From positions 731,530 to 795,529 of the forward strand of contig CAJINV010000021.1 of NCBI GenBank assembly GCA_905178155.1: DNA of 64,000 bases. Reading direction: 5' to 3'. This document shows, in pieces, positions 9,810 through 42,100 of this stretch (the stretch's first letter is position 1; each line of letters begins with the position of its first letter). Source of the DNA: Amoebophrya sp. A120. Taxonomy: Eukaryota > Protista > Dinoflagellata. Made by a program: the position numbers and the translations under genes. The notes beneath the pieces were generated by a model. It made no database searches. It was not told the DNA's origin and was given only the letters and a program-made list of their open reading frames with translations.

Positions 9810-11017
9810 CTACTTCTTCTTTTCTGGAACCAGTGTCGGCAAAAATATCTGTTGACGGCGCGGCTTCGCCACCGGCGTGGTCTCTTCAGCAAAAAAGCAG
9901 AGGTCGTTTTCGAGGAGAGGTGGAATCACCGTGGTCGCAAACGAGCGGGAGACTGGCGTGAAAGGTTGTCCACAAGCAAAAGCAGTACAACCACCGCACA
10001 TATTGTTCAAGTGGGATAACTCGTCTTCATCCGTTTGGTGACCCACCTCCCCGGAGGATACCAGGAAGTTATCCTCTCTGCAGAGCCCTTCATCCGTAGT
10101 CCTAGTTCCCGCTGGAAATGGAGTGAATTCTTCGCAAATAACGCTGGAGAAGACCAAGTCAAAGTGCGGTAAAACAGCTTGGCATTCGTCCTGTCGCGGC
10201 TCGCTCATCTTCAATTTATCTTTACTGATGGGATATCCACCAAGAAAAAATAAAGTGTGTAAGTGTAAGTGTAACTGTGTGGGACGAGTAGCATTACATC
10301 AAATTCGCTTTGCATATACAGAGAAAACCTGTCATGCGCAGCTAGTACGTGCAAACACGTATGAAGCATGGCTATGACGCACGTCCAGCATGACAAGTGT
10401 AACTGTGTTGCATTTTCTGCATCACAGACTTACACTTACACACTTTTTTTCTTGCGTATGGGAAAAGGAAAATTATCGTCCAACGACGACGGGGGAAATA
10501 GAAGAACGCTCGCTTCCCACAGGCGTTCACTCTTCCTTTCGTAATCGTAGTCGTACTCAAAGTCAAACTCATCATCGCTGACGGTACTATGGGGCTCCTC
10601 CACGCGTTTCGATTTTGAACAACTACGGGTGCCCGCTCCGCGTAGTAGTTGTGGCGACAGTGCATCATCTGGCGTGTAGTTGTCGCTGTTGTACTTTATT
10701 TCCACCACATCCCAAACTGTGTTCGTCTCCTCGCGCGGACTGTGCGGCCTTTGTGCATCGTCCCCGTTGTGGTCTTGCCCCTGTGCGCCGTGGTCCGCAG
10801 TAGGGTCGTGCCCCTCGCGGGCGAGATGAGAGTGCTTCATTTCGTCGTTGTTGTAAGTTAGTTGTTCGTCCTCGTGACCGAAATTAGAAAGCTGGAAGGG
10901 CACGTGGGAACCTTTCGGGGCCGAGGCGAACTCTGATTCGTCGTCCGTGAAGATTTTTGTTCTGTACAGATGAAGTCGGAGATCGTGCGGAGCGGAAAGT
11001 AGGTATCGAGTCAACAA
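9810..11017 (-). CDS. Hypothetical acidic low-complexity protein split by one introner; start and end uncertain
   Basis: Removing 10234-10463 joins ORF 10436-11017 (...FPFPI) to ORF 9810-10214 (SKDKLKMSEPRQ...) in frame. Confidence 0.55.
10234..10458. mobile_element. Introner, family B (225 bp), TSD TGGGA
   Basis: TIRs tatccaccaagaaaaaataaagtgtgtaagtgtaagt / acttacacttacacactttttttcttgcgta. TGGGA at 10229-10233 and 10459-10463. Confidence 0.85.
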
Positions 11018-11021
11018 AGCT

Positions 11022-11752
11022 TTACTTGAAGGGAAGTTTTCTTAGCACCGCACTGATGACGCGTCTTGTTGCTACGCGGGACAGGTCCTTGGAAAATTTC
11101 TGCACAAAAGGTTTAGCAGCGGCCTGCAGCTTTTCGGCCAGTCCGTGGTAGTAGCTAGTTGAGGTACCACGAGTTGCTGCGTTCGTTGAAGAAAAAGATG
11201 TTGACGTTCTTTTCGTGCTGTTCGAAAAATAACCTTTTTTGTCCTTAATATCTTGCAGTGCTGGTTTGTTGGCAGTCGAGGTAGTATTTTGTCGCTGAGA
11301 AGCCCCTGTAGCAAATCCTTCTGCGAACTGGGAGAAGGCCTTCGGCGCCTCGGTGGCCCACTGGGAGGTACGCACAGCGAAAGTGCGGAAGGCTGTATCA
11401 ACTGCAAACATGTGTGGGTCTGGAAGGATGTAAGACTTGTCATGCAGATTTTGATTTTCCATGACCCGTAAAGCCTGTAAAGCATGACCTAGCATCAGAG
11501 ACTTTTAGAGGGCTTCCTGATGCGCCTTCCACATGATAAAAAAATGCCCTGTCTGCGTAGCACGCACTGGACCCCTCTTGCTGGTCATGCAATACAAACT
11601 TTTTTAGAAACCAAAAACAGCATGACAAGATCCAGACCCAGACATATTTGCATTTGATAGGCTGGGCTGTTGAGCAAGAAATCCTTCAAGCCGTGCTGAA
11701 TCTGCTTCTCGTGCTGCTGGAAAAACGCGCGGAAAAAAAACCAGGGATTCAT
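11022..11752 (-). CDS. Small basic protein (~150 aa), 2 exons; weak resemblance to the Mrx7/NCBP2AS2-type LLxSPxF motif
   Basis: MNPWFFFRAFFQQHEKQIQHGLKDFLLNSPA joins FRTFAVRTSQW... in frame after removing the introner plus one TSD. Confidence 0.7.
11396..11659. mobile_element. Introner, family A (264 bp), TSD GGCTG
   Basis: TIRs tatcaactgcaaacatgtgtgggtctgga / tccagacccagacatatttgcatttgata. Perfect 5-bp direct repeat; frame restored. Confidence 0.92.
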
Positions 11753-12559: not shown

Positions 12560-14749
12560 TCACGCAGCGTTATACGGCTTCCCCGCATGGTCGGGAAGGG
12601 ATATGTAGCCCGTATCGGGGTCGAACAAACCAAGATGAGTGCTGTATCCCACGCTGCCGGGGGCTTCCCAGGGCGGGATGAATTTGCACTTGTACTGGCA
12701 GTAGCCTGGGTCGATGGGCGGTTTGTTGTTCCTGACCGGCGCGTCGTGCGGGATGCCCAGTTGCCGCGTGATTCCCCACGGCAGGGCACCTTTATTTTGT
12801 GCCGCGAGCGCGCGCTCCATCAAGTCTTTGCGGCAGTCGAGGTGCAGCCAGTGACCGCAGCGGTAAATCTTTCCGATGTTCCACTCCGGGGGATCGTCCT
12901 CGTCCTCCAAGCAAATGGTGCAAGACCCGGGGCGCCGCAGCGTGACGTTCACCAGCTCCGTGGCGTCCGGGTTTCCGAAGAGGAGCATGCAGTTGTCCCA
13001 AAACTCGTACAGACCCGTGCGGAGGAAAGTGCTGCAGGTCGTTGTACTATCCACAAAGCCTTTCAGCACGTGGAAGCACTCGCGCATGATCGGCTTCGTC
13101 TCGACGATTGTAAACTCCTTCTCCCCACACCGCCGCGGCAGCATTTGTGCCTGAATGTCGTTGCCACTGAAATTATGGCACAACATCGTCATCAGGCCCG
13201 TGAACCGGACCAGTGCCCACAACTCTCGCAGATCGGGACGACCGCGCTGCCGCATGTGCTGCACCAAGGATCGCAGCACCTTCGGCAGGTCCTCGGCACA
13301 GTAAATGTCGATCGCCTTCATCATTTTTCGCAGGGGATACAGCGTCCATTGTGTGGGAAGTGCGTGCGGTCCAGAAACCTCCTGTCGCATCCGCGAGAAG
13401 AACTTGCGCTCAAAGTGGATGATCGATTCGATCGCACTGACGATGATGGCAATGCGCGCAACCTTGTCCTCTTCGGTCTTGTGCTTCGCCGCAGCCGCAG
13501 CGTCTTGCTCGCTTACAAACCCAAAGAGTTCGACGCCGCACCATGACTTGGCGACCACCTCGAACGGCGCATCGGCCTGGTCAAGGTCGGTGAACATGGT
13601 CAAAAAAGACAGCGTATGCATCGCAAATATGAATGGGAATGGAAGATGAGTGCAAGTTTTGTCATGCAGGCTTTTCATGGCCCATGAGGTCTCGTCTCGT
13701 CTGGAATGCGGGAGTTGAATGACATATTAAATATCATGCCTACCCTACATGAGAAAATCTCCTTCATCTTGCTCGAAAGTGGGCAGCTTCTGGCACTCAT
13801 GCAACACAGATTTTTGCATGATTCAGATTCAGCACGTAAAGTTGCAAATGCAATCTGCCAGACCTTGACATATTTGCAGTGCATACTGCGGGAATCCTCC
13901 TTCTTCCGCACAAAACGTGAGCTGATCGGTGTTGTTCATGAGAAGGAGAGTAACATGGCACACGTCCAGCCACAAGCGCAGCAGGTGCTTATTCTTTCGA
14001 AAAGGATTTTGGTTATCGGTTCGAAAATCGTCGCGGAGGCTGGAGCGAAAGGCGAGGTCGGCCACTAATCTGTATTTCTTGATGAATTGCTGGAGCTCGT
14101 CGGTCATCGTTGCGAAATGCTGCTGCAGCCCGCGAGAGCAGTTTCCCTCGTCCACTGGTGTGCCTGCTGCGCCAGGAGTTGAGGCCGCAGCAGGTGGGTA
14201 GTACTTCGTGTAGGAGAGAAATTTGAGCAGGAGAACAGACACGCACACGCGGACATCCGGCTCGGAGGCAGCATCCGTCCGCTCCCACTTCAGCTTCAGC
14301 AGGTCGAATCGCATCTCAGCATCGGCACGCGTGGCGGGGATCTGGTGCAGTTCTTGACGTTCAAACCACCGCCAGAACTGCTCCAACGCGTCCACTTCTT
14401 CGTCAGCGCCGTCAGCACGGCGGCCCTCGTCCCCGCTACCCGCATTCGCTGCTTCCAATGCGTCCTCCCCGGGCGTCGCAGCGGATGTTGATGACGCAGG
14501 GTTCGTAGATGCCGTCGTCTCCTGCGGTCCTCGTGTTTCACGTCGTTTGCTTTTGCAGTCGAGTTTGTGACTTTTCCACTCTCGTTTTTGGCATTCACGC
14601 GAACAATAGTACACGCGCTTGCAGCCGGTGCACGCCCTCAACTGCACACTAGCGGACCCCTCTGTTTCCCGTGTTCCACAACAATCGCATGCGTGCGGCT
14701 CGAGTTCTTGTGCTTGCGCGGTTGCGGAATCTGAAACACCGACAGCCAT
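12560..14749 (-). CDS. MYND zinc finger + C-terminal RING-H2-like protein (paralog 1), 2 exons
   Basis: MYND: CDCC..CTGCKRVYYCSRECQKREWKSHKLDC. RING-H2-like: CTIC..CGHWLHLDC..CQYKC. Exons join across the introner at 13615-13885. Confidence 0.88.
13615..13885. mobile_element. Introner, family A, diverged (271 bp), TSD CAGCG/CTGCG
   Basis: TIRs tatgcatcgcaaatatg / catatttgcagtgcata. Joins GGFP(Q/L) to SFLTMF in frame. Confidence 0.85.
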
Positions 14750-15390: not shown

Positions 15391-15655
15391 GGCTCTCTTG
15401 GTTCGGATTTTATCAAGGACCGGCGACCCTGGTAAAATCTTTACCAGGGACCCGGGTCCCAGATGAAATCCCTACGCAGGCTCCCACGGTACCGATTTGA
15501 CCGATCTCAGAATGGTCCAGATCCTAGCCAAATCCTGGATGATGACTTTATCAAGGACCGTCGTCCTAGATCAAAACTTTGCCAAGGAGCTCCGACCTAG
15601 ATAAAAACTTTACCAGGGACCTCCGTCCCTGATAAAATCGCACCCATACAGAGCG
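15391..15655. repeat. Foldback/MITE-like element built of five 31-bp imperfect palindromic units
   Basis: Units at 15409-15439, 15440-15470, 15547-15577, 15578-15608 and 15609-15639, e.g. tttaccagggacctccgtccctgataaaatc. The left and right arms are inverted relative to each other. Confidence 0.8.
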
Positions 15656-16114: not shown

Positions 16115-18237
16115 TCAGCTTGGCGGAGTATACCGCTGCGCCTCGTAGAGGTCCACCGGCTTGATCACGCCCGACATGGAGTCGAGCATGGCCACCATCT
16201 TCCGACTTCCGACGGAGCCATTCAGGTCCCAGGCCGCGCGGGCGGTGGGGTCGCACTTGAACTGACAGTGCGGCGGGAGCGGGGTCTTCAAGTCCCAGGG
16301 AAGCGTCGGATTGCGGTTCGCGTGCGCGACCATCTGCTCTCGGCACTCCAGGTGGAGCCAGTGGCCGCACATGTAGATTTTTCCCACATCCTCCTCCTTC
16401 ACCTCGCCCTCCTCGAAGCAAATCGCGCAGGTGTTCGGCGACTTCACCCGGATTCCAAGATCCTCTGCGGCCTTGGGAACGGCGAACAGAAAACAGGCGT
16501 CGCTCCAGAGATCGTGAAATTCCATGCGCAAAAAGCTGTGAAGATATTGGTTTTGACTTTCAGGAGCGCCGTCGCAGCTGGCGGATTGCACGAACTTCTG
16601 CACGATGTCAAAGCACTTCCGAAAGATGTTCCGCGCTTCCCGCAGACTCAGTTTCTTGTTCCCCGCAGTTCCGCCCCTCGCCGGCAGCCAGAGCTCCTGC
16701 TGCTCCCGCCCTTGGTAGTTCCAGAGCAGGTCGCCCATGCTGCGCAGGACAATCTGCAGTCCCCAGAAATCGCGAACGTTGAATCGCGGCTTCTTCCGGC
16801 GGATCGCGAGGACGAAGTCCAGCAGCAGTTTCGGCAAGTCCTCCGCGTGGTCCGCGCCCACGAGCTTGAGCAACTCGCGAATCGGGAGTATGCATTGCAA
16901 AAGTACGGTCTAGAGGAAGCAGAAGTAGATGAAATAGCATATGCATATACAAATTTCCAGAAAGAAAAATGAAATTCTGTTTTTGATCCTGAATGGGCTA
17001 CATAAACCACTCCCGTCATGCTGTACTGCAACTGGTGGTACAAGCGCGGTTAGCATACTTTTGCAATTAGCATAAGCAGCAACATGATGCAGAAAGACAG
17101 CGGCGAGTTGGCGACGACCCGAATTCGGGAAAAATAGCGTGCGTTGATTTTGGTCAGGGAGTCCACGAGGGTCCAAACGAGAAGTTTCTCCTCCATGGTC
17201 AGTAACTTCTTCTTCTTGTTTCCACTACTCTCAGTTTCAGTTACAATTTCCACATGATCCTTTCCGAAATTCCGCGCCACCCACCACGCCACCGTGTTGA
17301 AGGTGAGATCCAGACACCCCAGGATCCTCGAAAACCCGTCGCCCGCGTCGTTCGGCAAATAGTCCAGGAAGGTCCAGTCCGCGTTGCTCATCAGCAGCAC
17401 CAGGGCGGCGCTCGCTTCGATCCACAGCTTCAGCAGGGACTCATCCTGTGCAAAGAACGTATCGGGGGCTCGCCCGCAGTCGACGATGAAACCAATCAAC
17501 TCCTCCGTGATGTCCTCCCACGGGATGCTGGACTTGAGATTGTCAACATCTGCCAGTTCTTTGAAGTCACCCTCGCGGCTGCTCTGAGGATCTTCAACAA
17601 ACGGGAAATAATCCATGTAGTGTAGAAAGTTGAAGATCGCCAAGGACAAAGTCACCCGTGCGGCGACATGCCCCTTACATTGTCGCCATTTCGTCAAAAT
17701 CTCCTTGACCCGCCGCCCCGCATCGCTTATGCTGGTCGGAACACTGTTCAGGTTTTCGTCCTCGAACCACGCAAGCACGCCGTCGTAGGATGTTGTTGTA
17801 ACGCTTCTTGTTGACGCTATTGATGTTGTACAACTTACCGCAGCACCGCCGGGCTTGCAGTTTAGCTTGTGCTTCTTCCAGTCTGCACGTTGACAAGCTT
17901 CGGAACAGTAGTGTACGATCTTGCATCTGGAACACGCTTTCAACTTCTCGAGGTTGTTGGCACCAGTAGTGCCACATTTGTTGCAGCTCATGGCCACCTT
18001 CAAACTCGTCTCGTTGTGGTCCTCCTTCTTGTCCAGTATCGCCTTCGGTCTGGGCGCGTCCGCAATGCATCTCCGGTCGTTCTCGCTCTGCGCGTTCGTG
18101 TACAGAGATTCGTACGGCTTTCGCGACCACGTCGCTTTCTGGATGAACCGCAGGATGACGTGAGTGAAAACAAAATACAGCAAGCCACCCACGATCCGAC
18201 CGCAAATCTGCAGGGTGAACCCGAGTGCTTCCAACAT
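16115..18237 (-). CDS. MYND zinc finger + RING-H2-like protein (paralog 2) with N-terminal hydrophobic segment, 2 exons
   Basis: CNKC..CSRCKIVHYCSEACQRADWKKHKLNC and CAIC..CGHWLHLEC..CQFKC. Aligns with paralog 1 at AEDLPK and GKIY.CGHWLHL.C. Confidence 0.88.
16889..17074. mobile_element. Introner, family C, diverged (186 bp), TSD GGGAG/AGCAG
   Basis: TIRs tatgcattgcaaaagtac / atacttttgcaattagcata. Removing 191 nt joins the two ORFs in frame. Confidence 0.8.
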
Positions 18238-18848
18238 GATGGAGGAGCTGTTCCTTGATGCTCCACAGAGAAGGATAATATTTTTGATGTCGTTGGCTGG
18301 TTTTCTATTAATCGTCTCGACGTAGATACACCTCCGGACCGTTCACATAATAGTTTTTTTGACGGCCGCAACACTATCTTACAGCTTGATTTTCGCAGAT
18401 CGACCACTTTTGTCGCTGCAGCATTTGCATTGATTTTGTGCTTTGGTTTTTGTGTTTCATTAGCCAGCAGCGTGAAACGAAAGTAGAGCATGAGGATGAG
18501 CACAAACCTAGCATTAGTGGACAGAGATTCACGATGAAAATGGCTGCTCACGAAGACGATTCTCAACGAGTTACCATACCCTCACCCGATTCTTTTGCAG
18601 TTACGTAATGGAAACGCGCGGTAGAATGATCTTGTTTTTGATCATCCTGTGCGAAACTACAAAAATACGAGCCCAGCACCAAGGAGAACATTAGTCGTGT
18701 GGTCGCTAGGTATGATCTCGATTTCCTCCTCTGGTTCACGCAGTGCAGTAGAGGAATGGAGCCAATGAGAGCGAACGCAAGCGTCAGCTTTGGATCTTGT
18801 TCATCTTCGTCGCAGTACTACAACAACTGCCCGTCATGCTAGCTCTAT

Positions 18849-19405
18849 CTAAAAGTCATTTTCTCGGAATTCTCTGCAGCACCCCATGACGACGTGGACT
18901 AGAACCACGTAGTAGAAGAGCAGCGCGGCCCAGCCGACTAAATGTATTTCTAGGTATTCCTCAATTTGGAACACCCAGTACACCATGCCCCAGTAGTACA
19001 GCGTGTTGCTATACCGGACCGTATACGCAAAAGACCGAAGCATGTCGTCGTAAAGTTTGTCCTTGATCGCTTCCCCCTTGGCCTCGTTCTGCCGTCGGCG
19101 GCGCTGGTACTGTATGGAGTAGAACGCGATGAGGGAGACGTAGGCGAGAAGCAGCATCAGCCCGATGTTCCAGCTATCGTTGTAGAGGGACAGCTATCCT
19201 GTGCAAAAGTATCGCACTCGTAGTAATCGCAGTTATGCATTACAAATCTCCATCCCAAGGCAAAACAGCATGACAAATTCCATTTGTCACGCTGAGCTAA
19301 TTTGTATTGCAATTGCTACTAGTACGATACTTTTGCAGTTCATAACAGCGCGTGCAAGAAAATCTTCAAAAAACCGAAGACGACGCCGACGAGGAAAATC
19401 AGCAT
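18849..19405 (-). CDS. Small multi-pass membrane protein (~133 aa), 2 exons
   Basis: MLIFLVGVVFGFLKIFLHALS joins LYNDSWNIGLMLLLAYVSL... after introner removal. Several hydrophobic stretches. Confidence 0.75.
19195..19344. mobile_element. Introner, family C (150 bp), TSD ACAGC
   Basis: TIRs tatcctgtgcaaaagtatcg / cgatacttttgcagttcata. Perfect TSD; differs at 9 of 150 positions from the reverse complement of 21342-21491. Confidence 0.95.
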
Positions 19406-19552
19406 GCTGTTATTTTGCGGGAGTGAATATCAATATGAAACGAATCCTGTTATATATTGATTTTGCGGCACAACAAAATCCTAGTCCTAGTACGCCGGCC
19501 TCAAGTACATACAAGAACTCCGGGCAAATATCAAGAAACAAGAACAAAAATC

Positions 19553-19771
19553 TTACGCGACACAAAACGCCGCGTCCACGCTCTGCTCCCTCCACATGTA
19601 GAGTGAAAAGACGACACTTATTGCCATCAGGCCGAGCGTGTATTCTTGCATGCCTTCCCAGGGGGTCTCGCCGGTGAGGTAACCCATGACATCGAGAATG
19701 ATGCAGATCCCGATCACAACGAAAATGCCCGCGATTCCCTGAAACGCATACCGCCGCATGAAGTTCGTCGC
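19553..19771 (-). CDS. Probable last exon of a small two-TM membrane protein; upstream exon not resolved
   Basis: Pyrimidine-rich acceptor (ttctcccgttcag) followed by ATNFMRRYAFQGIAGIFVVIGICIILDVMG...LGLMAISVVFSLYMW. Confidence 0.4.
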   Translation of the reverse strand, partial: ATNFMRRYAFQGIAGIFVVIGICIILDVMGYLTGETPWEGMQEYTLGLMAISVVFSLYMWREQSVDAAFCVA

Positions 19772-21199
19772 CTGAACGGGAGAAATAGGTTTTTTGGATT
19801 TCTAACATACGACAAACCATATTCATCATCATCATCATCATCATAACATCATCATCATGCTCGCCAGGAATTAGGTGGAGGAGGTGTCCGTCTTCGTCTA
19901 CGCAAAACAAGAAGTGCTACAGCGCAACAGAATGCTGCCTAATTAGTGGTCAGCATAAGTAGACTCATACCCAATCGGCCGGCATGTTTGCTTCATCAAA
20001 AACCAGTTGGTAAAATTTTCGTGCGGTGATGCCGGCGAGGTAGATCACGAAAAGCGAAAGGACCAAATAGTCCACGCCTTTCCGCCGAATTAAGGCGCCC
20101 ATGACTTTTTTGTACTTGCGCAGAAACTTCTGCTTGTCCAACACACTCCCGCGGCGCGCTGTCGTGGCAGGAGCCCCTGCCGCCCGAGTTTTTTACCTTT
20201 TGTCTCAACACTCAAAGGCTCCTGCAGAGGTGCGCCACACAAATGGAGATCGACGGGTCTTCGCTGGAAGAGCTCTTACCGCAAGAGCAGCACGATCGTA
20301 AGACCGGCGCGGTTGTGCTGCCCTCTCATCTTCCACCATCGCGGCCGGCCCCGCTACATTTTTCAGGAATAAAGGTTGAGCAGATAAAAGGTTGAATTAT
20401 CGGTCGTGCATGAAAACAAGTAAGAAGTAAACCTTCGTATAAATGTGGAGATCTTCTGCTGTTGACCGCAAGAATTGCAAGCGCGATCACATCATCAATG
20501 ACGATGATCCAAAAAAAGCAACGGTTTTACGACAGTTCAGTTCTTGCACGACCGACAGAAGATGAACGACTTTCCGCGACCATGAAGACGTGGAGAAGGA
20601 ATGCCGTTGCCAGGACGACTCCACACTGTGAGGCCGCGTGAAAACAATAACAAACCGCAGGCCATATGCTGGCATCGTTTTATCTTTGTCCATGATGATG
20701 TACACCTACATTTGCAACTGGAGATTTCAAAAATGTACAAGGTAATCACCTGCAGGTGGACAAGGATTATTCCGTGAATTTCCATTTTTCGATTTGTGCT
20801 ATTGTATTACGACGTATCATACAAGAACAACTTAGACACGCTTCATCATTAATTAGCATGATATCCCGAAGACGGTAAAGTAATGGTGACTCCATTTTTT
20901 TCGTCCGATTTTCTTACTGGTACCGTTTACGGAAAGGTATGAGGACTGCCATATCTACATGTTTTCGGTGTTCGATGATGCTGTGTAGCGAGCCCAAAGA
21001 TAGATTATACATTGAGAATGAGATATGGCAACATTCGGATCCTGCAATAAATATTCATGTTATCATCGAGATTTGTTAGAAGTTCAATCTGAATTACAAC
21101 AAGTACCCGAGCAAGAACAAAGAAACGGCCAGTGTAGACTTTCTTAGTGTAGAAGACAGATATGGTGTTGATCATCTCTTTCGCTGCTGACCTGGTGCT

Positions 21200-22146
21200 C
21201 TACTGCTGCACCTCTTTTTTCCTCTTCCCGCCCTGGCTCCTCGGACTGGCCCCGCTCCGCGGACTGGCTCCGTAGGCGCCCACGGCGGAGGAGGCGTTGG
21301 AGCCGTGAAAACTCGACCCCGTGTTGTTCGCGGACGACGCGTATGAACTGCAAAAGTATCGTACTAGTAGTAATCGCAAGACAAATTAGCTCAGCACGAC
21401 AAATGGAATCTGTCATGCTGTTTTGCCTTGTGATGGAGATTTGTAATGCATGACTGCGATTACTACGAGTACGATACTTTTGCACAGGATAACGCGTTTC
21501 CCGCGGCCTGCGCCATCTGCATGGTGATAGCGCCAAGCTTATGCATTGCAGAAGTACCATACTCGTACGTATTCCATTTTCAATCGCAGACATGCATTAC
21601 AAATTCATTTTAAGCTTATTAATCCGCATTACAAATTTCGTTTCTCTTTCTGAGAAAATTTGCCATGCAATTTATACGTAGTACGATATTCTTGCAATGC
21701 ATAACGCTTTGCAAAATTCTCCGATTTCTCCGCTTCCTCTAGCTCTTGCAACTCCAGCACTTCCCGGTCCCGCTGGGCGAAGTTTCTCTCCGTCTCATCC
21801 ATGTAGTACTGCAGTTGGTCGTGGTACTCTCGCATCATATCCCACGAAAAAAGTGTTACAGTTACACATTTGTAGTCAATTCAGCAACACAAATTTCTCT
21901 GTATGAGAGAGAAAACTTGTAATGCAGAAATCCTACGGGAAAACACGTATGAAACGAGGCTCCTATGCATATCCGGCATGACAGAGCTTGTCTGTCTTGC
22001 TTGGTCTGCAACACTACCACAATGTGTAACTGTAACACTTTTTTCTTGCGATACATCATGACCGTGCGGTAGTAGAGGGAGATTGGGAAAAACAGCAGCA
22101 GGCACAGCAACCCGAACGCGAGAATCACATTGAACTGCGTAATCAT
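21200..22146 (-). CDS. Small protein with N-terminal TM and coiled coil; 4 exons separated only by introners
   Basis: MITQFNVILAFGLLCLLLFFPISLYYRTVMM/REYHDQLQ...ENFAK(R/L)/GAITMQMAQAAGNA/SSANNTGSS...KKEVQQ*. The ORF is open only after all three introners are removed. Confidence 0.8.
21342..21491. mobile_element. Introner, family C (150 bp), TSD ACGCG
   Basis: Perfect TSD; inverted near-copy of 19195-19344; frame restored. Confidence 0.95.
21540..21703. mobile_element. Introner, family C, diverged (164 bp), TSD AAGCT/ACGCT
   Basis: TIRs tatgcattgcagaagtac / gatattcttgcaatgcata; frame restored. Confidence 0.85.
21838..22053. mobile_element. Introner, family B (216 bp), TSD CATCA
   Basis: TIRs tatcccacgaaaaaagtgttacagttacacatt / aatgtgtaactgtaacacttttttcttgcgata. 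Perfect TSD. Confidence 0.95.
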
Positions 22147-22298
22147 GCTGCCGGACTCGATTTGCGTCGGGGTTTGGTTGCCGTGGGAGAGCTAGGTTTT
22201 TGTTTTTCGATCCATCAATCAAAGTGCTGGCGGTGCAACCGAAGTTTTACTGCACTAATCGATGAATAAAATAGTGTTAGTTAATGAATGATCATGCA

Positions 22299-23865
22299 TC
22301 ACAAGGTTGGTCTATCAAACTTTAAACTACGAATCGGACTTGGTTCACAAATGAATAGTACCGTGAAAGTGCACGACCAGGGGTCCTCATCGCAAAATTT
22401 CTCTCTGCCCTGCCCGTCAATCTCGGTCGTGATAAAATGGCAGCAGTTCGTGGTGGGCGGACACAATTCCCGAAACGGTTCGTCGTGCGGCTTCCCGTCG
22501 TCGTCAAATTTCAGGTGGAAATACGCCTGCCCGTGACCTTCCACCTGCAAACTATGCAACACAAATTTCCTCTCCTGCACATATACAAAATGCATCACAA
22601 ATTTCACCACCTTGGAAGAGCATGCACCTTGTCATGCTGATTAGGATAGAAAGAAAGTTTTGTCATGCAGAAACCGCATTTTTGGTACGTGTACGGGAGG
22701 TTTACTGTGGATACAACTCAAACAGACACTCCTCGCACTTGTGCCCCGGTTTGTACCCAATCGTGGTGCAGGTGGATTCCTTGCGCGGAAGAAGATTGCC
22801 CATAGCGGCGAAGTACACCATCATCAGAATCACGCCTGGTGGAGATTTTCATTTTGACGCGATGAAATATCGTCTTCATTGGAAGCGGCCATGCATGTTG
22901 CAAGTAGCGTGTCACTCATTCAACAAGGGAGAATCATGCAATATTTCTCATTCTCGAAGATTGAATTTCTCATCCAAAAAAAAATCGCAGTTTTAGTCAG
23001 CGTGGCAAACCAAATCTTCTTCTAACGAAGTAATCTATACCGGTGACGAAAATTCCCGTTGGTATGAGGAACCAGAAGCAGACGTTCTTTCGTGGATTTG
23101 TTGGCATTTTGTGCTTCTGCTTCCTCGTCTCTGTGTCTTCTGACCAGTCGGACTCACTCTCTTCGACCACGTGCAGTCTTGCGAGGAAATGGTGCCAACC
23201 GTGATGGTGGTGCCGACTGCTCTTCTTGGATGCCTGCCGCTGTTCGATCTGATGAAGATTTTTTTCCAAAGTTAAAGAAAGAACCCAGATTATATCACCT
23301 GCGCAGAATTTGAATTGAAGATTGATGGCGCTAATACGATGCCGCGAATCCCAAAGAAATAGAAACTCATGCAAAATCCAAAAGCAATATATTTCCATAC
23401 TCATACCAGTTCCCACGGCTTTGGCGGTCTTGGCGCGTAGACATATCGCACCTGTTCTCCTCGGTTGTAAAACTTCTTACTACTGCTTCGGGAAAAGGTC
23501 ACGCTCTCCTTCGAGGTTTTTTTCGACCTTGGCGCCGAAGAGATCGCTTTCGAACCGTGGAAAGACTTGGCCTTGGACCCCTCCGCAGTCCGCGCACCAC
23601 CATGGTGATCACCTCCGGCGGTTGGTCCTCCGTAGTACAGCTCCGGAATAGATTTACCCGCGACCGTCCTGTCATGCGACTGGACTCCCTCGGGGGACAC
23701 AATGTTCTTGAAGAGTTTCACCGAGCCACGAATGTTGTTCGGGTTGACCTGTTGTTTGCTGCCGGAGGAGGGCGAGGTGACCTGGTTTGTTCGGGTGCTG
23801 GGCGACTTCGGCTTTTTGTCGTTGGGCGTTGTGGCCCGGTCGTTCAGAAGCGTTAGCGGAGGCAT
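22299..23865 (-). CDS. Hypothetical membrane protein with Cys-rich C-terminal part, ~4 exons
   Basis: ORF 23401-23865 splices by GT-AG to IEQRQ...FWFLIPTGIFVT, then by GT-AG to GVILMMVYF...CEECLF, then across the 22553-22713 element to LQVEGHG...CPPTTNCCHF. Confidence 0.65.
22553..22713. mobile_element. Degenerate introner (161 bp), TSD CAAAC/CAACT
   Basis: Both ends keep TAT-N7-AAA (tatgcaacacaaa; tttactgtggata) and internal ttgtcatgc motifs. Removing 166 nt restores the frame. Confidence 0.7.
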
Positions 23866-30431: not shown

Positions 30432-31079
30432 CTTCGAAGGCTGGTGGCGCACCGGGTGTCCCGAGGACGCGATAGCTCTTTCAAGAAAGCTTCATTATTT
30501 TTTTCGAGCTGCAGAGGTGCCACAACATTGCGGTGCACTCACCGCCGCTGCTGCGCCTGCAAGCGTTTGAGTGCTGTGTGACTACTTCTTGTTATACCAA
30601 ACGCAAAATTTACGGGATTGCGGCACAAATGTACCGACTAGCTCGTGACACAAAACACTCTCAAATGCATCCCTCTCGTGGAATCGGGTTTGCGTCCGCT
30701 ACTTAGGGCTTTCAGTCACACTGGAGAACTTTCTGATATTGGTCACTACCACTCCCTCGCTGATAAGATTCTGCTGCACGCTTTCAAACCACCTATTCGC
30801 CCACTGCCACCGCAATTTATCTGCAAAAATCACACCGAAAACAAGGGCGCCACGAAGAAAGATACGTCTAACAACCCCCAGGAAAACACACGACTCGGGT
30901 GGATAGGAAAACACCAACCGGTCTCACGCAAACACAAACCTGTCGAAACACATTTTCTGGACCACCAGCACGAAAACCACAAACGCCAACGAGCCAGAGT
31001 CTAGCCACAGTTTTCGCGACATACGTTGTTGCTGCGCCCTTCCGGCTGACTGCCTGCGAAAAAAAGCTGCGACGGGGCG

Positions 31080-33166: not shown

Positions 33167-36100
33167 TCACGACACCATCCCGGCGTTCAACCTGGCTTGG
33201 TGCGCCGGCCAGAGATCCGTTAGCTTCAGCAACAGCCACTGCGTGTTGTCCGCCTTCTGGATCCACTGGTTGGACAGCTTCGACATCTGGCGCAACAGCG
33301 AGATGTAGGTCCGCATATGACTACCGGCATCGGGCAACCGGTCCTGCACGGCGGTCTCGACCGCGAGATTGTGGTAGCACACGACTAGTAGAGACGACAC
33401 TCCGGAGTTTGTCAGCTTGTTCAGAGCCTGCTGCAGGAAGTATTCTGCTTCGTGATGGTGGTTCTGCAGGAACAAAACCGATCCGTACCGCAGGCAGCAC
33501 TTCGCGAACCGATTGACGTGTTTCAGCTTCAAGTACCGCTGGCTTGCCTGCTGGAAGAAGGATTCCGCCTTGCTGGCCAGCTGCACGTCTTGGGGGGAAT
33601 AGTAGGCGACAGAGAGGGCCGTGTCGTAGAGGTAAGCCTCCAAAACCGCACGGTGCGCCGGGTGCAAATCCCTCAAAGCCGTCTGCATCGCCTCCAATGT
33701 CTGCAAACAGAGCCTCGCCGCGGCGGCGGAGTCGCTGTTCTTCAAACACAAACCGATGTAACCGACGAGGAGTTGGAAGATCGTCTCGATCAGCAGAGGC
33801 CGGTTTGCGACCAGCTGCGAGGGCTGGAAGACGTTCAGGTTGCCCGGGACGCACGTTTCCAACAACTTGATGCAAGCGGCGTAGTGACACTGCTTCTCGT
33901 GCTCGATGTACTGCTCGAGTTGCTTCGCGGGCAGCAACTGCAACACCTTCGAGCGGCACGCCGTGAACCGGTGGGCCTTGATCGGCAGCCACATGGGCTT
34001 CAGCTTTCCCTTGCACCAGTCCACCGTCACGTTCGGGGTCGGGACCTTTTCGTACGGCTTGTCCGCCGCGTCCTGCTTCAGTTTCGTCGCGACCGCCGCC
34101 TGCGCGGCCGGGTCGTCGCCCGCGGCTGCCATCTCCTCTTCGGCCTTCTTCTGCATGTAGTCCTCGCGAAACAGGTATTCGTCGGGTCGTTCTCGTTATC
34201 CCACGAAAAAACCGTTTCACTGTGATGATTTCGCAGGAAGAGGAACCGCATCACAAGTTTGTTACACATGACACAGAAAATTTGCCGCGCGCGTTTCCCA
34301 AGGGAAAATACGCTTAAAAATCCAACGGCTTGCAGGGAGGTGTAGCAAGGCAAATAGTTAAGTTCTGTGTTCCATTGTCTGCATCACAAGTTCACAGTGG
34401 AACAGTTTTTTCTTGCGATAGTCGCCTCGGCGAGGTTCCCGTGGAGAAGGGAATCACCGCCGGCTCGATGTCTTTAAACTGCGAGTCGTCGCCGTTTATC
34501 AAATGCAAATGTGTGGTCTGGGTCTGGAAGATTGCAAGATTTGTCATGCTAGTCTGGCATGACTCTGCAGTCTGTATTGCGTGGCCACCAAGAGGCCCTC
34601 TTGCCTGTCATGCAAAAGCGCAGTCTCTCATGCGAAATACGCAGCACAGAAGCACGAAAAAACTTGTCATGCTTGGCGGTGCATTTTTACAGAGCACTAT
34701 ACTGTTCACGGACTTGCACCATCACAAGTTTATTTTTCCAGACCCAGACTTATTTGCAATGCATACCGTTTGTTTCTTCCAAGTACCTTGTCAGGTAGTC
34801 TCCGGAGAGCTGAATGGCGTTTGGATCCGGTGGTCTCTCCATCTGCTGCTCCTCCTCCTGCGACTTCGACTCCGGTCGTTCCGGCTCTAGCGCCGCTTCC
34901 GACGCCTGCCTCCTGGCTGTCGGCGACATGTCCTGGTCATCCGCATCAAGCTGCCCGCCGGCGCGCTGCGCGGCCGCGGACAGGCCGACGCCGGACTGGC
35001 GGGAGCCCGGGGCCTGGGAGGTGGATGTGGAACCCGCGGTGGGTTTTCTGTGGAACAGCTCCGTTTCGACCGGTTTGATCCGGCCCGGCGCACCAGTCGC
35101 GTCGCCGCCCGCGCCCGCGGCTTCGGACTTCGGGACGTAGGCCTTGGAGAACCCGATGGCGCGGCCGCGCTTGAGCTGCGCGGACACGGATTCGACCATG
35201 GGTTTCAAAGAGGCGTTCTTCTCCAATAAGGAAACGAAATTCCTCACCACCGTGTCGTATGCGAAGGACAGCGCCTTCCAGATCTTCGCCATCTCCCGTC
35301 GCCGGTACATGTTGTACACGTAGAGCGCGTATAAATCCGCGCACGCCCGGTGATCCGCGGTAATCCTCACCTGCGGCAAGTCCTGCAGCGTCTCGACCGG
35401 GATCGCGCCTTTTTCCCCCCTTTCCGGCATACCGACTTGTTCCTGCTTGGACAACGCGCCCGGCCGCTTCAGCTCCTTCTGCTTCTTCTCCGCCTCCAGG
35501 CCCTGGCCACCGAGGTACTGGGACACGACCGGCTGGTAGGTGGCAATCTTTTCGTCGAGGGTTTTGCCGGAGTCCTTCCTCTATGCATTGCAAAAGCATC
35601 GTCTTAGAAGTACAATTCGCATGCCAAACAATTTTTTAGGAAGAAAGTATGAAATTTCTCATGCGGAGTTGGGTAAGAAAGCAGATGTGTCATGCAGCAT
35701 CGCAATGACTACTAGTACGACACTTTTGATGTCAACTGCGTAGCTTCTTGTTCGCTTTCCTGGTCAAGGCCGTCAGCTCGTCTTCGTCCTCATCCGGCTC
35801 GTCGCCGAGCGCCCGCGGCCAGTCGATCTCCTTGCAGTACCCGCAGATAACTTTCACGCGGTGTGAGTACCGCGCGCGGAGCATAAAACCCTTGAAGTTC
35901 GCCTGCAGCTTGCAGACCAGCGCGAGAATAGCCGTTGGCGCGGCGTTGAGGATCTGCTGTGCCTTCTCCGGGTCGGTCTTCTCGTAGGACTGCGACATCA
36001 ACGCAAAATTGTGCGTGTTCAGTCCGTCGTCCGGGTGCTCTGGCTTCGGGATTGGGATCTGGCACTGCTGGATGTGTCGCACGTTGATCTCGTTGACCGC

Positions 36101-39100
36101 CTTGATCGCGTTGGCCTCGAACATGGGCTGCAGCCCGCGGAAGCACGCGAGGACCAATTGGGAGACGACGGTGTAACCCTGGAGGTGGGCATCCGTGCCC
36201 TCGAGCGCACCGAGGAGGAGAGAAATGTGCTTGGAAATCGAGCGGACCTGAGGAGGAGTTTGGGATCATGTCTCTGTATGGCAAAAATCACAATGTAATG
36301 TTGTCAGATTTTTTTATTTTTTCAATCTAGAAATGGCCGTAAAAAACAGTCGCGCTGCCGCAAAACCCAACTATCTTCTACCTCCGCATCTTCCGTCCAG
36401 GAAGACCCCGTGAAGCTGTCCAGTGCCTGTCTGTTGGCATCTACCCCCGTTACCGCGGCAGCCGCCTTGTTCTTGTCCGCACCGACTTTCCTGACTTTCT
36501 TTGCCTTTTCCTTGCGCTTCATGAAGTGGTCCATGTGTTCCTCCGCATCCCGGTTGGACTCCATCAGCATTTCGGAGGCAAATCGCAAAGCCAGCACCTC
36601 CTCCAAAAAGTCCTGCAGGTTCGCCGCCTTCACGCTGTTCGCGGAAGCCGTCGCGGGCTGCACTTTATCCCTCGCCGGGTCGTTCACCGCGAAGCCGAAC
36701 TTCTCGCCGACGCACCGGTATTCGAGCGTCTCCAACACGTCCCACTTCGGTCGCGACTTGATTCCGCGGTACCGGTTTTCTCGGGTGGTGAACTGATTTA
36801 GCGTCTCAATCCACAACCTGGACAACCAGAACGACACACACGTGAACATGGACTCGTTGCTGCTCATAAGGAGCACCGGCGTCGCTTTCGCAGGCTTCAC
36901 CGTTCTGGCGCCCGCGTAGGCGAACAGGGACTTCCAGATCATCACGACCGACATCAGCGCCTTTCTCCACGGAGAGAGGTTCTTGGTATTCAGCGTAGTG
37001 ACGTCCTGGTTGATCTTGGTGCAAATAATCTTTGCGGCAGCGGCCATGTGCTCCTGCACATCGGCCGGGAGCTCCTGCGGCTTGGGTAATTTCAGGCGGT
37101 GGAACCACGGGGCTGGTCGCTTGTCATCCGCCCGCGAAAGCAGACCGCCTGTTGATTTGGGTGAATTGGAAAATTGAATGCAGTATGTCAGATTGTGTTT
37201 GTCTTTGAATTGAAATCTTTATCTTAGCCTAAGATAAAGATTTCACTCTGTAGTTCCAATTACACGTGCAAATCATACTTACATAAAGTTGGAAGTACCT
37301 AAGAACGCCGAGGCCATGAAATAGGTCGCCCGCAAGTTGTTCTTCTGGTGTGGTTGGACCAGTCGCAGACCGACGGACTTCGGAATCCACGGAATCGACG
37401 TGCGGAACTGCTTGGTTTCCCAGTTGCTGAGAAAGTCCTCGTCGATCAGCTTCGACTCTGCCACCGTCGGGGCCTGCGGCCTTTTCCCCACCCGCAACAC
37501 GTGCTTGATCTGCGACCCGCGACGCTTCAGCGGGTGGATCTTCATGTGACTGGTGCTGGGCGGCATGGTCTTCTCCAAAGAGCGCTTCGCGTTTTCGGTC
37601 AGCGTCATGATCGCGGTCTTCGTGAAGCCCGACGGCATCTGGTCGCTGTCCCCGGTGCCGACCGCGAGCTTGCCCGCCAGCATCTCCTGCTCCCGCATCC
37701 CGCGCTTCCCGCGCGCGATTGCGAACGTGAGCGGCTCGGAGAAGCACAGCCGGACCGGCTGGATCGTGCCCTTCATGTTCTCGCGGTTGTCCTTCTTCTT
37801 CGCGCGCGCGTGCTTCGACTGCCCGTGGACCGCAACCATGCGGCGGTAGTCGATGTTCCTTTCTCGGTGCTTGTGGAGTTGGACTCTGGACTTTGCGACC
37901 AGCGCTGCTTTCCGCGCGAGAAATTCCGACTCCGTCATTCTCCCTGCCTTCTCGCACAGTGCGTGGGACTCCTGCTTGAATTTCGCCGCAAGCCGTCGGC
38001 CTTCCTTGTTGAAGACCACTAAGATCAGCAACCGCCGCACGTTATGCATTGCAAAAGTATCGTACTGGTACTAGTAGTAATCCCAATCGTCCATGACAAA
38101 TCTCGTTGGTTCTTGTTAAGCTTAAGCCACATCCGCATTACAAATTAATGCTGATGAAAAAAGCGCAATTTCTACTAGTACGATACGTTATTTGCTCAGG
38201 ATACACGTTCTTCTGAATCGTGATGGCCGCGTGGTTCATCTTGCGAAACCACTTGCGCATCACCGCCCCGCGCCACAACCGCTGGATCTTCGCGACCGCG
38301 AGGGTAAAGGAATGATTCTTTCGCTTTCGCTGCACCGCGCGCACGTTGTGCTGGACCAATTCGACCGCATTCAGCATGTTGTAGGTCTTCATCGAGGTCT
38401 TCACCCCCCGCCAGTACCTCTGGAGAAGTAAAGCCGGGCCCAACTGCTTCCTCCGCTGCGTCGTCGCCTTGTAGTACCGGTATTTGCTTTGGAGTTGCAC
38501 ACTAGCCCGGTGGTAGTACGTCCTCACCATCAACCCGCGGCACAGCATGTGGAATAACACAACGGCTAAGACGAACGGGCAGTGGTCGTGCTTCGCCTTG
38601 TAAGCCAGGTCGAACAACTTGTCAATCACCGCGATGAACCGGCTCTGCCGGACGTTCCCCTCGCCGCCGTCTTGCTTTTCCTTCTCGGCGTCCTTCTTCC
38701 TGCGGATGTACCGAATAATCCCTTCCTGGTCCCGCATCAGATACGACAGCTGCTGCACGATACGCAGACACGCCGGGCGGTTGAAGAAACTGAGTCTCCC
38801 GCCCTTGTACTCCGGGCCCATCACGACCGAGGCGTGGCGGGACAGCAGCGGGTTCTGCTTCGGGTCCGCGAGTTTCGACGGCTTGCCGTCCTTGTCGGCT
38901 TCCAAACCGGGCAAGGTCGTGATGAATTTCCCAACCTGCGTTGCCAGACTGTACACCGTCCCGTGCGCTTTCGGCCATTCAGACGGGTACCGCAGACCCA
39001 TCTCTTTCGACAAAACGTCCATGATCTGCGACCCGACGGTGGCGTCCACGCCCTGGAACGCGAAGTGATCGTCGGTGGACAAGCTGGACAAATCCAGCGC

Positions 39101-42100
39101 CTGCCTCGTGGTGATCAAAATCTGGGCGGTTAAGTACACATGTCGCAAATGCGGGGGCATGTTATCAAGTGTAAAAATGTCTGGGTCTGGCAGATTCTGA
39201 GACTTGTCATGCACGTTTTGCATGAGCCATGATGTCTGTGATACATGCCGTAGCATCACAGATTTTTCGAGGGGTTCTTGATGCCTATGTCGCATGACAA
39301 ATGCCCTATCCGCGTAGCAAGAATTACATTCCCTTTGCTACTCATGCAATACAATTTTTTTTGGAATCCAAATGCAGCATCACAAGTTGCGACCGTCCAG
39401 ACCCAGACATTTTTACATTTCATACATGTTCGCGAGAAACAAGACGTAGAAGTTTTCCGGCGTGGCCGTCATCATCCGGTCGTGGTGGTGGTTGATGTGG
39501 CAGTAGTCCTGCGACATCGATTCCAACGGCTCACCGGGTCGCGGCGGGACCGGCATGTCCGGCTGCTTCCCCAACGTGATCTCTTCGAAGGGGTAGGCCG
39601 GGCACTTCAAAAACGACGTGGACAAGTGCGCCAGGTTGTAGCAGCACCACTTCACCGTGTTGGAGAACACGTCGTTGTCGATGTGGGACAATAAATGGTG
39701 CACAATCGTGACCAGCATGTGCGTCCCCAGGTCGTTCTCCGACTCGTCTAACGTTAAGTCCTTCGCGCTGCAGCGCTTCGACCGGGTCCCGATCTCCTCG
39801 TTGGCAAGCTTCCCGGTGACCCGGGTCAAGCCTAAAGTTCTCTGCAACGACGCCTTGATCTGCTCCAGCACCTCCTGGATTTCCGGGGGCAAGTGCCGGA
39901 ACCAGGGATGGACGAAATACCGCACGTTGCTTGCCCCGAGCAGGGCGGACACGAGGACGGTCGAGATTCTCTTGTCCGCTTCCGCCTTGTCCCGCTTCTC
40001 GTTGACGAAGTACTCGTAACCCTTGTGCTTGCGGAAGTTCCGCTGGATCATGGTGGCGGCGAGGTCGGACAACTTTTCCTTCATCACCTGCTTGCGGACG
40101 CCGTAGATCTCGTCCAACCGACTGTACAAATGCATCTTCATGGCCAGCTGGGCCTGCCACCGTCGCCAGTGCGACTGGATCTTCGTGGCCATCTTCTGCT
40201 TGTGGTTCATCAGTTTCCGGCCGAGGTACCCGCGCATCCGCGCCTGCGCCAAGGTCGTGTGGTGCACGAGGTTTTTGTGGCGCATGCGGGTCAGGGTGCC
40301 GCGGGACATGGCCTGCAGCCGCGCGGCGGCCTGGTTCATCACCCGGACCGGCTTCTTCCCGTAGAGGTACCTGGGGTGGGGGTTTAGGATTTTGGCATCA
40401 CAGCGCTCTGTGGTCGCATGGTGCGCAAGAGATAGTCATAGTTCGTAGGGAGAGGTATCCTTGAATTTATCAAGTGCATGTAGTTCAAACACAAAACATT
40501 CAAAAAAACATGGTAATTTAATTACATTCTAAACGCCCTCTGCAGCACGTCCGCGGCTTTGTGAAATCTCTTCACATGCACTCTGCAGACGCTCCCCCGG
40601 AACGCGGACTGCAGCTTCGTCGCAGCCAAGTTTCGGTCCTGGATCGAGATGCGCACGATCTTTCCGCGGAACAAGGCCTGGATTTGCGACGCCCGCTTGT
40701 GCATCAGTTCCTTCTCCTGGTGCGCTTTGAACTTGCGGTACCAGCCGCGAAGAATGATCGCGTTCGAACCGTGTTTACCGAAGATTTTCTGGCAATCCCA
40801 CATGCGCTTGTACTTCTGGATCACGATCACCGCGGCGGTTTCCCGGCGGACCTGCGCGCGGGCGAGCGCACCGCGGCAGAACTTCTGGATAGACAAAAGC
40901 GCTTTCTGCTCCTTGGCCTTCTGGATAATGTGCCCCGGGTCGTCGCATACGATTTCTTCCTGATAGAGAATATTTCGTGAAGATGAAAATCAAATCAAGT
41001 TTCATTTTGCTGTTGAGGGTCTGCTGCATGGTCATGAAAAATTATCATTAGTTGCCACTAAGCAGAAACAAGTAGACGAGACATACAAGCAAAAATTATC
41101 TCTCTACTTTTACCTTGAAATTGTAGTAGTATCCTTCACTGGTCGAGCTCAACCGCGGCGGGTTCAACCGCTGCAGGAACCAGTGCTTCGCGGGTGTAAT
41201 CGCTAACGCCTGCTCAAACGTGTCCTTCGTGAAGTACAGCCACTTGTCGCCGCCCTCGTAACCCGTTTTGTCGGACTGGTTGTCCCGGGCAAGAAACCTT
41301 CGCCGGTTCGTGAACCCGACATTCAGCATCGGCACGTAGTCCTTCATGATTTGCACCTCCGAGGCGGTCAAGTACCGGCAGCCCGGGAGCGGCTGCACCC
41401 AGTGCTTGCGGCCGCGCTTCGACTTGTGCAACTTCTGGAAGCACATGATGCAGTAGTAGTCCGTGCACTGCTGGCACCAGACGATGCTGTCCGGAATCCC
41501 GCACTCGCTGCACTTTATCTTCACGAACCCTCGGTAGTCCCACAGAAAGTCGTTCTGGATGCAGTCGGACAGGTGTGAGCGTGCACAACTCCCCCCCCTC
41601 CTCATTTAGATGGCAACACAAGCTCGGGCATAGATGCAGCTTTTGCATGACAAAATGACGACCGATTCTAGTGCGGCTTGGAATTCCGAAATTTGTCATG
41701 CAAGCAGTACGAAGAGGCCACGGATGGATTTAGTATTTCGCACGACAAATGAGAAGGAGGTGGGGGAGTTGTGCACTTTCATAACAAGTGCTCGCGGAAC
41801 TGGTCCACCATGGGGTGGATCGGCTGAATGTGCTCGGTTTCCAAATTGATGTACCACCGAACATCGTTCTTCACAATCAAGTCCCAGTGCGGCGGAAGCG
41901 GGTAGCGGAGCGCAAAGTAACAGTACCTGGAGGATTATTTTGAGATCATGTAAAAATTCTTATTCAATGCTAGTGGCAGAAAAAGAAAAGAACTTGTGAT
42001 CCAGCAGCGCTCTCTCGTTTAATTTTCAGGTTGCTTCACTAAATTAGGATTAGCTCATAAAACCGTCCTGCATAAACTTGTTACCCCCGATGCTGTCATG

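What the first reader, a model, noticed from the sequence alone, without database searches (positions are those of the whole stretch)
19195..21491. Orientation-independent intron: the same 150-bp element in opposite orientations in same-strand genes
Seen: 19195-19344 and the reverse complement of 21342-21491 differ at only 9 of 150 positions. Both sit in minus-strand genes whose frames are restored on removal. The same inversion is seen for family B (34197-34420 vs 59408-59616) and for family D within one gene (56648-56926 vs 60324-60616). Known: spliceosomal introns are polar (donor, branch point, acceptor). Inference: recognition depends on the symmetric TIR stem (or on DNA), not on directional internal signals.
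Basis: partly seen in the sequence, partly recalled or inferred. Interest (0 to 1): 0.85.

Follow-up and report, generated by a model that had tools for sequence, protein, structure and literature searches.

The report
Two-way transposon introns lacking GT-AG
In a parasitic dinoflagellate (Amoebophrya), small transposon copies that interrupt genes are removed cleanly from the RNA whichever way round they are inserted, likely because their mirror-image ends carry the whole splicing signal; the elements are already described, but a likely cutting rule (one base before, four bases after the element) makes their unknown splicing machinery testable.

Summary
Observation confirmed, with corrections. 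19195-19344 and the reverse complement of 21342-21491 match at 141 of 150 bases. Each is a TAT…ATA terminal-inverted-repeat element flanked by a 5-bp target duplication. RNA-derived contigs join across both; the piece removed is 155 nt (element plus one duplication copy), not 150. All 8 elements in the laid region are skipped, family A in both orientations, while DNA contigs keep them. The family D pair is supported by an ortholog. The family B copy at 59408 lies inside a GT-AG intron and is no test. In a second assembly, 98 of 102 clearly coding insertions keep frame this way; family A orientation is 25:33; no directional internal signal appears; G·U pairs exceed A·C in transcript sense. Four junctions with unequal duplications share one cut register, N-TAT…ATA-NNNN, placing TA where canonical GTA donors have it; this is weakly supported and may vary. 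The elements match the published Amoebophrya A120 introners, and two-way introners are known from Polarella and Aureococcus. Most likely a relaxed spliceosome reads the symmetric ends (about 0.5); a Euglena-like non-spliceosomal route remains open (about 0.35).

The parts
19195..19344 (+). Family A introner element (TAT…ATA, 150 bp), antisense to the 21342 copy; intron in minus-strand gene 1
   Evidence: RNA joint 19189>19345 skips 155 in 4 of 4 runs
19190..19194 (.). 5-bp target duplication, left copy (identical copy at 19345-19349)
19191..19345 (-). Inferred intron under the +1/-4 register (155 nt)
   Evidence: length; register inferred from other junctions
21342..21491 (-). Family A introner element, opposite orientation; intron in minus-strand gene 2
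   Evidence: RNA joint 21336>21492 skips 155 in 4 of 4 runs
21337..21341 (.). 5-bp target duplication, left copy (identical copy at 21492-21496)
18756..20530 (-). Gene 1 transcript span: four exons, two GT-AG introns (19970-19772, 19556-19407) and one introner
   Evidence: model gives 1271 nt, equal to the RNA contig length
20688..24005 (-). Gene 2 transcript span: eight exons, three GT-AG introns and four introners
   Evidence: model gives 2074 nt, equal to the RNA contig length
21540..21703 (+). Family A element, same orientation as 19195; unequal duplication copies allow cut register 4 or 5
   Evidence: joint 21534>21704 in 3 of 4 runs
21838..22053 (.). Family B/E element, spliced with one duplication copy
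   Evidence: joint 21832>22054 in 4 of 4 runs
22553..22713 (-). Degenerate family A element, still spliced; allows register 2-5
   Evidence: joint 22547>22714 in 4 of 4 runs
34197..34420 (.). Family B element, exon-splitting; allows register 1-4
   Evidence: joint 34192>34422 in 3 of 4 runs; junction gapless against ortholog P0108
34497..34765 (.). Family C element, spliced
   Evidence: joint 34491>34766 in 3 of 4 runs
35582..35742 (-). Degenerate family A element with TAC at the 5' arm; allows register 3 or 4 (register 3 would read GC-AG)
   Evidence: joint 35577>35744 in 3 of 4 runs
38043..38203 (+). Family A element, 19195 orientation
   Evidence: gapless to orthologs when element+5 is removed; no RNA joint seen
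39163..39424 (.). Family C element, opposite to 34497 and 59922
56648..56926 (.). Family D element, last intron of gene X (starts 60715)
   Evidence: gapless to ortholog P0001
57005..57154 (-). Third full 150-bp family A copy, 21342 orientation, in gene X
58102..58310 (.). Family B/E element in gene X, opposite to 21838 and 34197
58965..59312 (.). Family C element in gene X
59408..59616 (.). Family B element nested in the canonical GT-AG intron 59831-59393; not an exon-splitting intron
59922..60182 (.). Family C element in gene X
60324..60616 (.). Family D element, first intron of gene X, opposite to 56648
10234..10458 (.). Family B/E element with TAC at the 5' arm and a perfect duplication
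   Evidence: frame joins 194+139 codons on +5 removal
11396..11659 (.). Family C element
13615..13885 (.). Family C element
   Evidence: frame joins 304+349 codons on +5 removal
16889..17074 (.). Degenerate element, orientation unassigned
   Evidence: frame joins 422+256 codons on +5 removal
62172..62424 (.). Family C element
   Evidence: ORF test not discriminating

Best explanation
These are MITE-type introner elements that are removed from the RNA in either orientation together with one copy of their 5-bp target duplication, likely by a modified U2/U5/U6 spliceosome that reads only the element's mirror-image ends. Shown: the DNA structure (TAT…ATA ends, 5-bp duplication), removal of element+5 nt from RNA contigs in both orientations, and retention in DNA. 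Inferred: a transposase acting in trans inserts the element without strand preference. In the pre-mRNA the arms pair from about position 8 inward and bring the ends together. The usual cut falls one base before the first TAT and four bases after the last ATA, so the element's T-A take positions +2/+3 of the canonical GTA donor while +1 and the last two bases are free. Because each end is the reverse complement of the other, either orientation offers the same signals. The branch adenosine would come from the ATA of the 3' arm (-7 or -5); this step and the identity of the enzyme are untested.
For: RNA joints: 8 of 8 elements in 19100-36100 skipped as element+5, family A in both orientations (2 and 3 copies), on contigs that also join GT-AG introns. 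DNA run X5: single-copy contigs at about 44x run unbroken across the junctions into the elements. Orthologs: six elements of gene X and two more are gapless only with +5 removal. Second assembly: 227 of 321 elements have a perfect 5-bp duplication, none 6-8 bp; 98 of 102 clearly coding ones keep frame with one copy; family A 25:33. The two arms are alike in transcript sense, A=T (9258/9260), and no 5-mer asymmetry survives correction. G·U exceeds A·C in the terminal 30 nt in transcript sense: 102:68 (p=0.011) and 168:120 (p=0.006); sense folds better in 93 of 160. Register: the four informative junctions intersect at one value. All 9 canonical donors seen start GTA. All 9 predominant A120 non-canonical classes in Table S4 of PMC7789003 have T as second base, and all 9 of A25, whose repeats begin TTA, start TT. 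U1 snRNA was not found while most other spliceosome parts were (PMC7789003). A spliceosome adapted to non-GT/AG introns is described in Fritillaria.
Against: No lariat or branch point was seen. G+1 and the final AG, normally required, are absent: all four first bases and all 16 end dinucleotides occur. A shared register among four junctions arises by chance 35% of the time, two junctions carry it, and contigs show only the majority form. In the second assembly, mismatches between duplication copies fall at codon positions 1/2/3 as 14/3/34 (p=0.001 against a free intronic copy; strict set 10/2/21, p=0.017), which suggests both copies reach mRNA, i.e. a variable register; the window's own 10 mismatches read by hand are 2/5/3. 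A codon-likelihood test of register was uninformative. The G·U excess is absent in the window's 21 elements (21:19) and beyond position 30, and transcription-linked C-to-T bias could mimic it. Table S4 may reflect aligner bias. Euglena's analogous introns leave as circles and are thought non-spliceosomal. All RNA contigs come from one sample whose kind is a guess.
Confidence: 0.52

Rival explanations
1. A non-spliceosomal endonuclease and ligase recognise the paired ends and cut at fixed offsets (1 and 4 nt) from the TAT/ATA triplets, as proposed for Euglena nonconventional introns (offsets 3 and 5 from CAG/CTG).
For: Same geometry as the Euglena code 5'-N3CDG…CH'GN5-6. Any base is allowed at the ends. 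End-to-end pairing is kept even in degenerate spliced elements. G·U excess in transcript sense. U1 not found.
Against: The triplet sits exactly in register with the organism's GTA donors, and the unrelated A25 repeats (TTA) appear to do the same. A spliced element carries TAC, a variant also seen in canonical donors. The terminal triplets are often predicted unpaired.
Confidence: 0.35
2. Each orientation happens to carry its own internal branch point and is spliced by an ordinary polar mechanism, with donor and acceptor taken from the duplication.
For: Two-way introners with conventional sites exist in Polarella. Interiors are partly self-complementary. The 35582 junction can be read as GC-AG.
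Against: GT-AG or GC-AG cannot be read at most junctions. No strand-biased motif or pyrimidine tract in 160 elements.
Confidence: 0.08
3. The elements are excised from DNA (like ciliate internal eliminated sequences with 5-bp pointers) in some nuclei or life stage, and the RNA copies the edited DNA.
For: Symmetry and pointer-like repeats fit DNA excision. Both duplication copies look constrained in the second assembly. The RNA and DNA runs are different samples.
Against: DNA contigs pass the junctions unbroken at single-copy depth. RNA contigs from other loci still contain element ends (loose ends). No listed DNA joint matches a precise excision, although 365 joints were not shown.
Confidence: 0.04

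Closest known systems
Amoebophrya A120 introner elements (Farhat et al. 2021, PMC7789003; families in Gozashti et al. 2025, PMC12130899 Dataset S2)
   Same: Repeats begin TAT, seven variable bases, then AAA; 3-5 nt direct repeats; non-canonical borders; hairpin; thousands of copies. The window's closest named protein is from Amoebophrya A25 (85%).
   Different: Nothing in kind. The text read does not mention element orientation, and the Fig. 3 legend calls the splice position variable and unknown; here both orientations are shown spliced and a usual register is inferred. The figures themselves could not be seen.
Two-way introners of Polarella glacialis (classes 2, 3, 6, 7, 8, 10) and Aureococcus (bioRxiv 10.1101/2020.10.14.339549; Huff 2016 known only through it)
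   Same: Repeat-ended DNA transposons that make introns in either orientation and lose one duplication copy on splicing.
   Different: Those use GT/GC/GA donors and AG acceptors and show orientation bias; these need no conserved first base or AG and show no detectable bias.
Euglena nonconventional introns (Nomura et al. 2025, PMC12501133)
   Same: Complementary triplets at fixed unequal offsets from free ends, paired termini, direct repeats at borders, suspected MITE origin.
   Different: CAG/CTG with offsets 3 and 5-6 and a purine rule, against TAT/ATA with inferred offsets 1 and 4; unrelated lineage; circles reported there, untested here.
Fritillaria borealis non-canonical introns (as described in PMC11282704 and PMC13326754)
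   Same: MITE-derived introns without GT-AG, handled by an adapted major spliceosome.
   Different: They keep preferred ends (AG-AC, AG-AT) and U1; here the first and last bases are free and U1 was not found.

Membership tests
Amoebophrya A120-type introner element | Inverted repeat starting TAT, about seven variable bases, then AAA | tested here: met
Amoebophrya A120-type introner element | 3-5 nt direct repeat at the exon-intron borders | tested here: met
   5 bp
Amoebophrya A120-type introner element | RNA-supported intron with non-GT-AG borders | tested here: met
Amoebophrya A120-type introner element | Repeated family across the genome | tested here: met
   three full copies in 64 kb; bins over elements reach 7,000-60,000 summed depth against about 44 elsewhere in run X5
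Amoebophrya A120-type introner element | Host is strain A120 itself | tested here: inconclusive
   best named hit is A25 at 85%; motif matches the A120 description; no genome held
MITE (non-autonomous TIR DNA transposon) | Terminal inverted repeats, fixed-length duplication, short and non-coding, either orientation | tested here: met
MITE (non-autonomous TIR DNA transposon) | Cognate autonomous element or transposase | tested here: inconclusive
   one 2459-bp element with a 415-aa ORF, no Pfam match; further searches did not run
Canonical U2 spliceosomal intron | GT/GC first and AG last dinucleotide | tested here: not met
Canonical U2 spliceosomal intron | Lariat through a branch adenosine; needs U2, U5, U6 | not testable with these tools
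   no raw reads of this organism
Euglenid nonconventional intron | N3-CDG…CHG-N5-6 motif | tested here: not met
   ends are TAT…ATA
Euglenid nonconventional intron | Ends paired in RNA | tested here: met
   predicted folding and G·U excess; not probed experimentally
Euglenid nonconventional intron | Excised as circle without lariat | not testable with these tools
   contigs only
Ciliate-type internal eliminated sequence | Absent from the expressed DNA | tested here: not met
   present at single-copy depth in DNA run X5; one sample only

The most novel reading that the evidence does not exclude
Amoebophrya has a second, non-spliceosomal mRNA splicing system that reads a fully symmetric code, N1-TAT…ATA-N4 on an RNA stem, evolved independently of the Euglena N3-CAG…CTG-N5 system: two lineages that each turned a transposon's ends and target duplication into a splicing rule and so neutralise any insertion in any orientation.
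Probability: 0.33. Interest if true: 0.85.

Novelty: already known. Interest (0 to 1): 0.5.

Why it matters
How Amoebophrya removes the 60% or more of its introns that lack GT-AG, apparently without U1 snRNA, is an open question (PMC7789003). Showing that orientation is irrelevant confines the signal to the symmetric ends. The inferred rule (one base before TAT, four after ATA) gives exact predictions for lariat or circle junctions and for minigene mutants. It also explains why the invasion is tolerated: any insertion site and either orientation restores the mRNA exactly.

Tried and rejected
No whole genome was held, so a genome-wide count in the window's own organism was not possible; a second assembly was used instead. 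Those 152 loci come from a scan that stopped early (25 of 64 parts) and was seeded with a family A end motif, so family A dominates and copies are not independent. No listed holder was on record as RNA. Removal of 150 nt only, or of element plus 0-4 or 6-8 nt, was rejected by frame, ortholog score or contig length; the 35582 ortholog test did not discriminate. The first gene X model treated 59408 as an exon-splitting intron and failed. No homolog of gene 2 exon 1 was found. No Rfam match in the window; no viral contig held the end motif. Codon-likelihood inference of the register was uninformative. The weak end-like pair 32546-32673 has no duplication, is not skipped in RNA and was not counted. 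The L060 ORF had no Pfam match; two further searches did not run because the machines were busy, so it stays unexplained. Three look-ups of earlier findings returned nothing. Huff 2016 and the journal version of Roy 2023 were not held.

Full report
Observation. The two stretches align at 141 of 150 positions on opposite strands. Each begins TAT, ends ATA, has arms complementary at 19-20 of 25 terminal positions, and is flanked by a perfect 5-bp direct repeat. The window holds 14 such elements with a perfect repeat against 0 in each of 20 block shuffles, and 22 in all once degenerate ones are included. The best named relative of a window protein is from Amoebophrya sp. A25 at 85%, and the end motif is the one described for strain A120, so the window is an Amoebophrya, likely A120 or close to it.

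What is removed. Four contig sets of one sample, guessed to be RNA, were laid on 19100-36100. Fifteen of 16 joints were shown: 7 canonical minus-strand GT-AG introns and all 8 elements of the region. Each element is skipped with exactly five extra bases, one copy of the duplication: 155 nt for both copies in the finding, in 4 of 4 runs. These contigs behave as mRNA, since they join canonical introns and vary in depth by gene. Exon models give 1271 and 2074 nt, the observed contig lengths, whereas removing 150 nt breaks the frame. A uniform-depth run (X5, about 44x) has single-copy contigs that run unbroken across the junctions into the elements, so the elements are in the DNA; 365 of its joints were not shown. 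For gene X, removing six elements plus five bases each gives a 629-aa protein with no gap at any junction against ortholog P0001, and every other length scores lower. Elements 38043 and 39163 pass the same test. The family D pair therefore stands. The family B copy at 59408 is nested in a GT-AG intron and is not a test; 58102 supplies the opposite orientation for that group.

Orientation. Using interiors only, the window gives 3:4 (A), 3:2 (B/E, one nested), 4:3 (C) and 1:1 (D). Among RNA-joined family A copies, two lie one way and three the other. A scan with the family A end motif returned 152 loci from one other assembly, holding 321 distinct elements, 227 with a perfect 5-bp repeat. Of 297 with usable flanks, 102 had both flanks clearly coding under a codon model trained on the window; 98 of these keep frame with one repeat copy. 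Family A orientation was 25:33 (p=0.36), C 7:9, B 2:2, D 1:5. On window elements the caller passed 14 of 20 and was wrong on one, which the frame filter would drop. In 160 elements of a relaxed set the 5' and 3' arms did not differ at any of 20 positions, A equalled T, and the best strand-biased 5-mer (p=0.0008 of 512 pairs) did not survive correction.

Role of the stem. All 22 window elements pair end to end (14-26 expected pairs) and 9 canonical introns do not (0-5). The terminal triplets themselves are predicted mostly unpaired in 5 of the 8 RNA-joined elements, and arm complementarity is 0.26-0.54 at positions 4-7 against 0.86-0.99 at 8-14 (family A dominates that set). In transcript sense G·U pairs outnumber A·C in the terminal 30 nt of the second assembly (102:68 and 168:120, in both family A orientations), as expected if the stem works in RNA. 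The excess is absent in the window's 21 exon-splitting elements and beyond position 30, and mutation bias could contribute.

Cut register. Where the repeat copies differ, the joint shows which copy is kept. The four informative junctions allow 4-5, 2-5, 1-4 and 3-4 bases from the 5' copy; the only common value is 4. The intron then reads N-TAT…ATA-NNNN, and its T-A fall on +2/+3 of the GTA that starts all 9 canonical donors seen. Published tallies agree: T is the second base of all nine predominant A120 classes and TT starts all nine A25 classes. Against this: chance gives a common register 35% of the time, contigs hide minor forms, aligners may favour such ends, and the codon-position pattern of repeat mismatches in the second assembly (14/3/34) suggests both copies can reach mRNA. 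The register is a likely mode, not a proven constant.

Mechanism. I favour (0.52) a modified major spliceosome that keeps the +2/+3 reading, drops G+1 and the AG, and uses the stem in place of U1 to bring the ends together, with a branch A in the 3' arm. The last steps are inference. A Euglena-like endonuclease and ligase is the main rival (0.35). Conventional internal signals in each orientation (0.08) and DNA excision (0.04) fit poorly.

Literature seen. PMC7789003: abstract, sections 10-12 and 16, passages, supplementary legends and Tables S4, S5 and S7 in part; figures were not visible, and Fig. 3 and S23 may already show the register. PMC11282704: the main text. PMC9860276: passages; its method allows opposite-orientation matches. 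PMC12130899: passages and 19 of 58 A120 rows of Dataset S2, many labelled 'co-opt both'; two supplementary files were not searched. bioRxiv 10.1101/2020.10.14.339549: passages stating either-orientation intron creation in Polarella and Aureococcus; its supplements are closed. PMC12501133: abstract, passages, section 8. PMC13326754 and PMC12621601: passages. Searches and the term search found no statement that Amoebophrya introners splice in both orientations or at a fixed offset; subscription papers are not covered.

Verdict. A real feature of an already described system. The two-way behaviour is now shown for it but has precedent elsewhere. The value lies in the narrowed signal and the testable cutting rule. 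Interest 0.5.

Noticed in passing
window 59408-59616 within 59831-59393: An intact element with a perfect duplication sits inside a canonical GT-AG intron, ending about 15 nt before the AG; it may be spliced first (nested) or leave with the host intron.
   Followed up: partly
loci L001-L152: Mismatches between the two duplication copies fall at codon positions 1/2/3 as 14/3/34 (30 of 51 synonymous, counted by hand), as if both copies were under coding constraint.
   Followed up: partly
loci L001-L152: A second assembly holds the same family A at 68-93% identity to the window copy (median 79%, 165 full-length hits) and shares no long stretch with the window, although such families were described as strain-specific.
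   Followed up: partly
L060:202-2660: A 2459-bp stretch with family C-like ends and a perfect 5-bp duplication appears to interrupt a gene and contains a 415-aa ORF without Pfam match: captured gene, nested insert or autonomous partner.
   Followed up: partly
L023:4520-5334: An 815-bp TAT…ATA element with a different repeat sequence and a perfect duplication.
   Followed up: no
loci L001-L152: Duplication composition is mildly biased in a near-symmetric way (G/C at positions 2 and 4, A/T at 3), which would explain the published excess of AG and AC ends as target preference rather than splicing signal.
   Followed up: partly
window 15400-15645: A palindromic repeat with internal tandem copies whose inverted repeat extends past TAT/ATA and has no direct repeat; probably a different MITE between genes.
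   Followed up: no
window 35362-36053: DNA run X5 shows a second version at equal depth (about 43x each) with many substitutions, and X1 has RNA contigs of it: a duplicated segment elsewhere in the genome.
   Followed up: no
window 1-64000: All genes examined lie on the minus strand. They include an AAA_11/AAA_12 helicase (4811-8788), two MYND-finger genes, an EF-hand ion channel (26005-28881), an IQ-motif gene, an SH3 gene and a B-box gene.
   Followed up: partly
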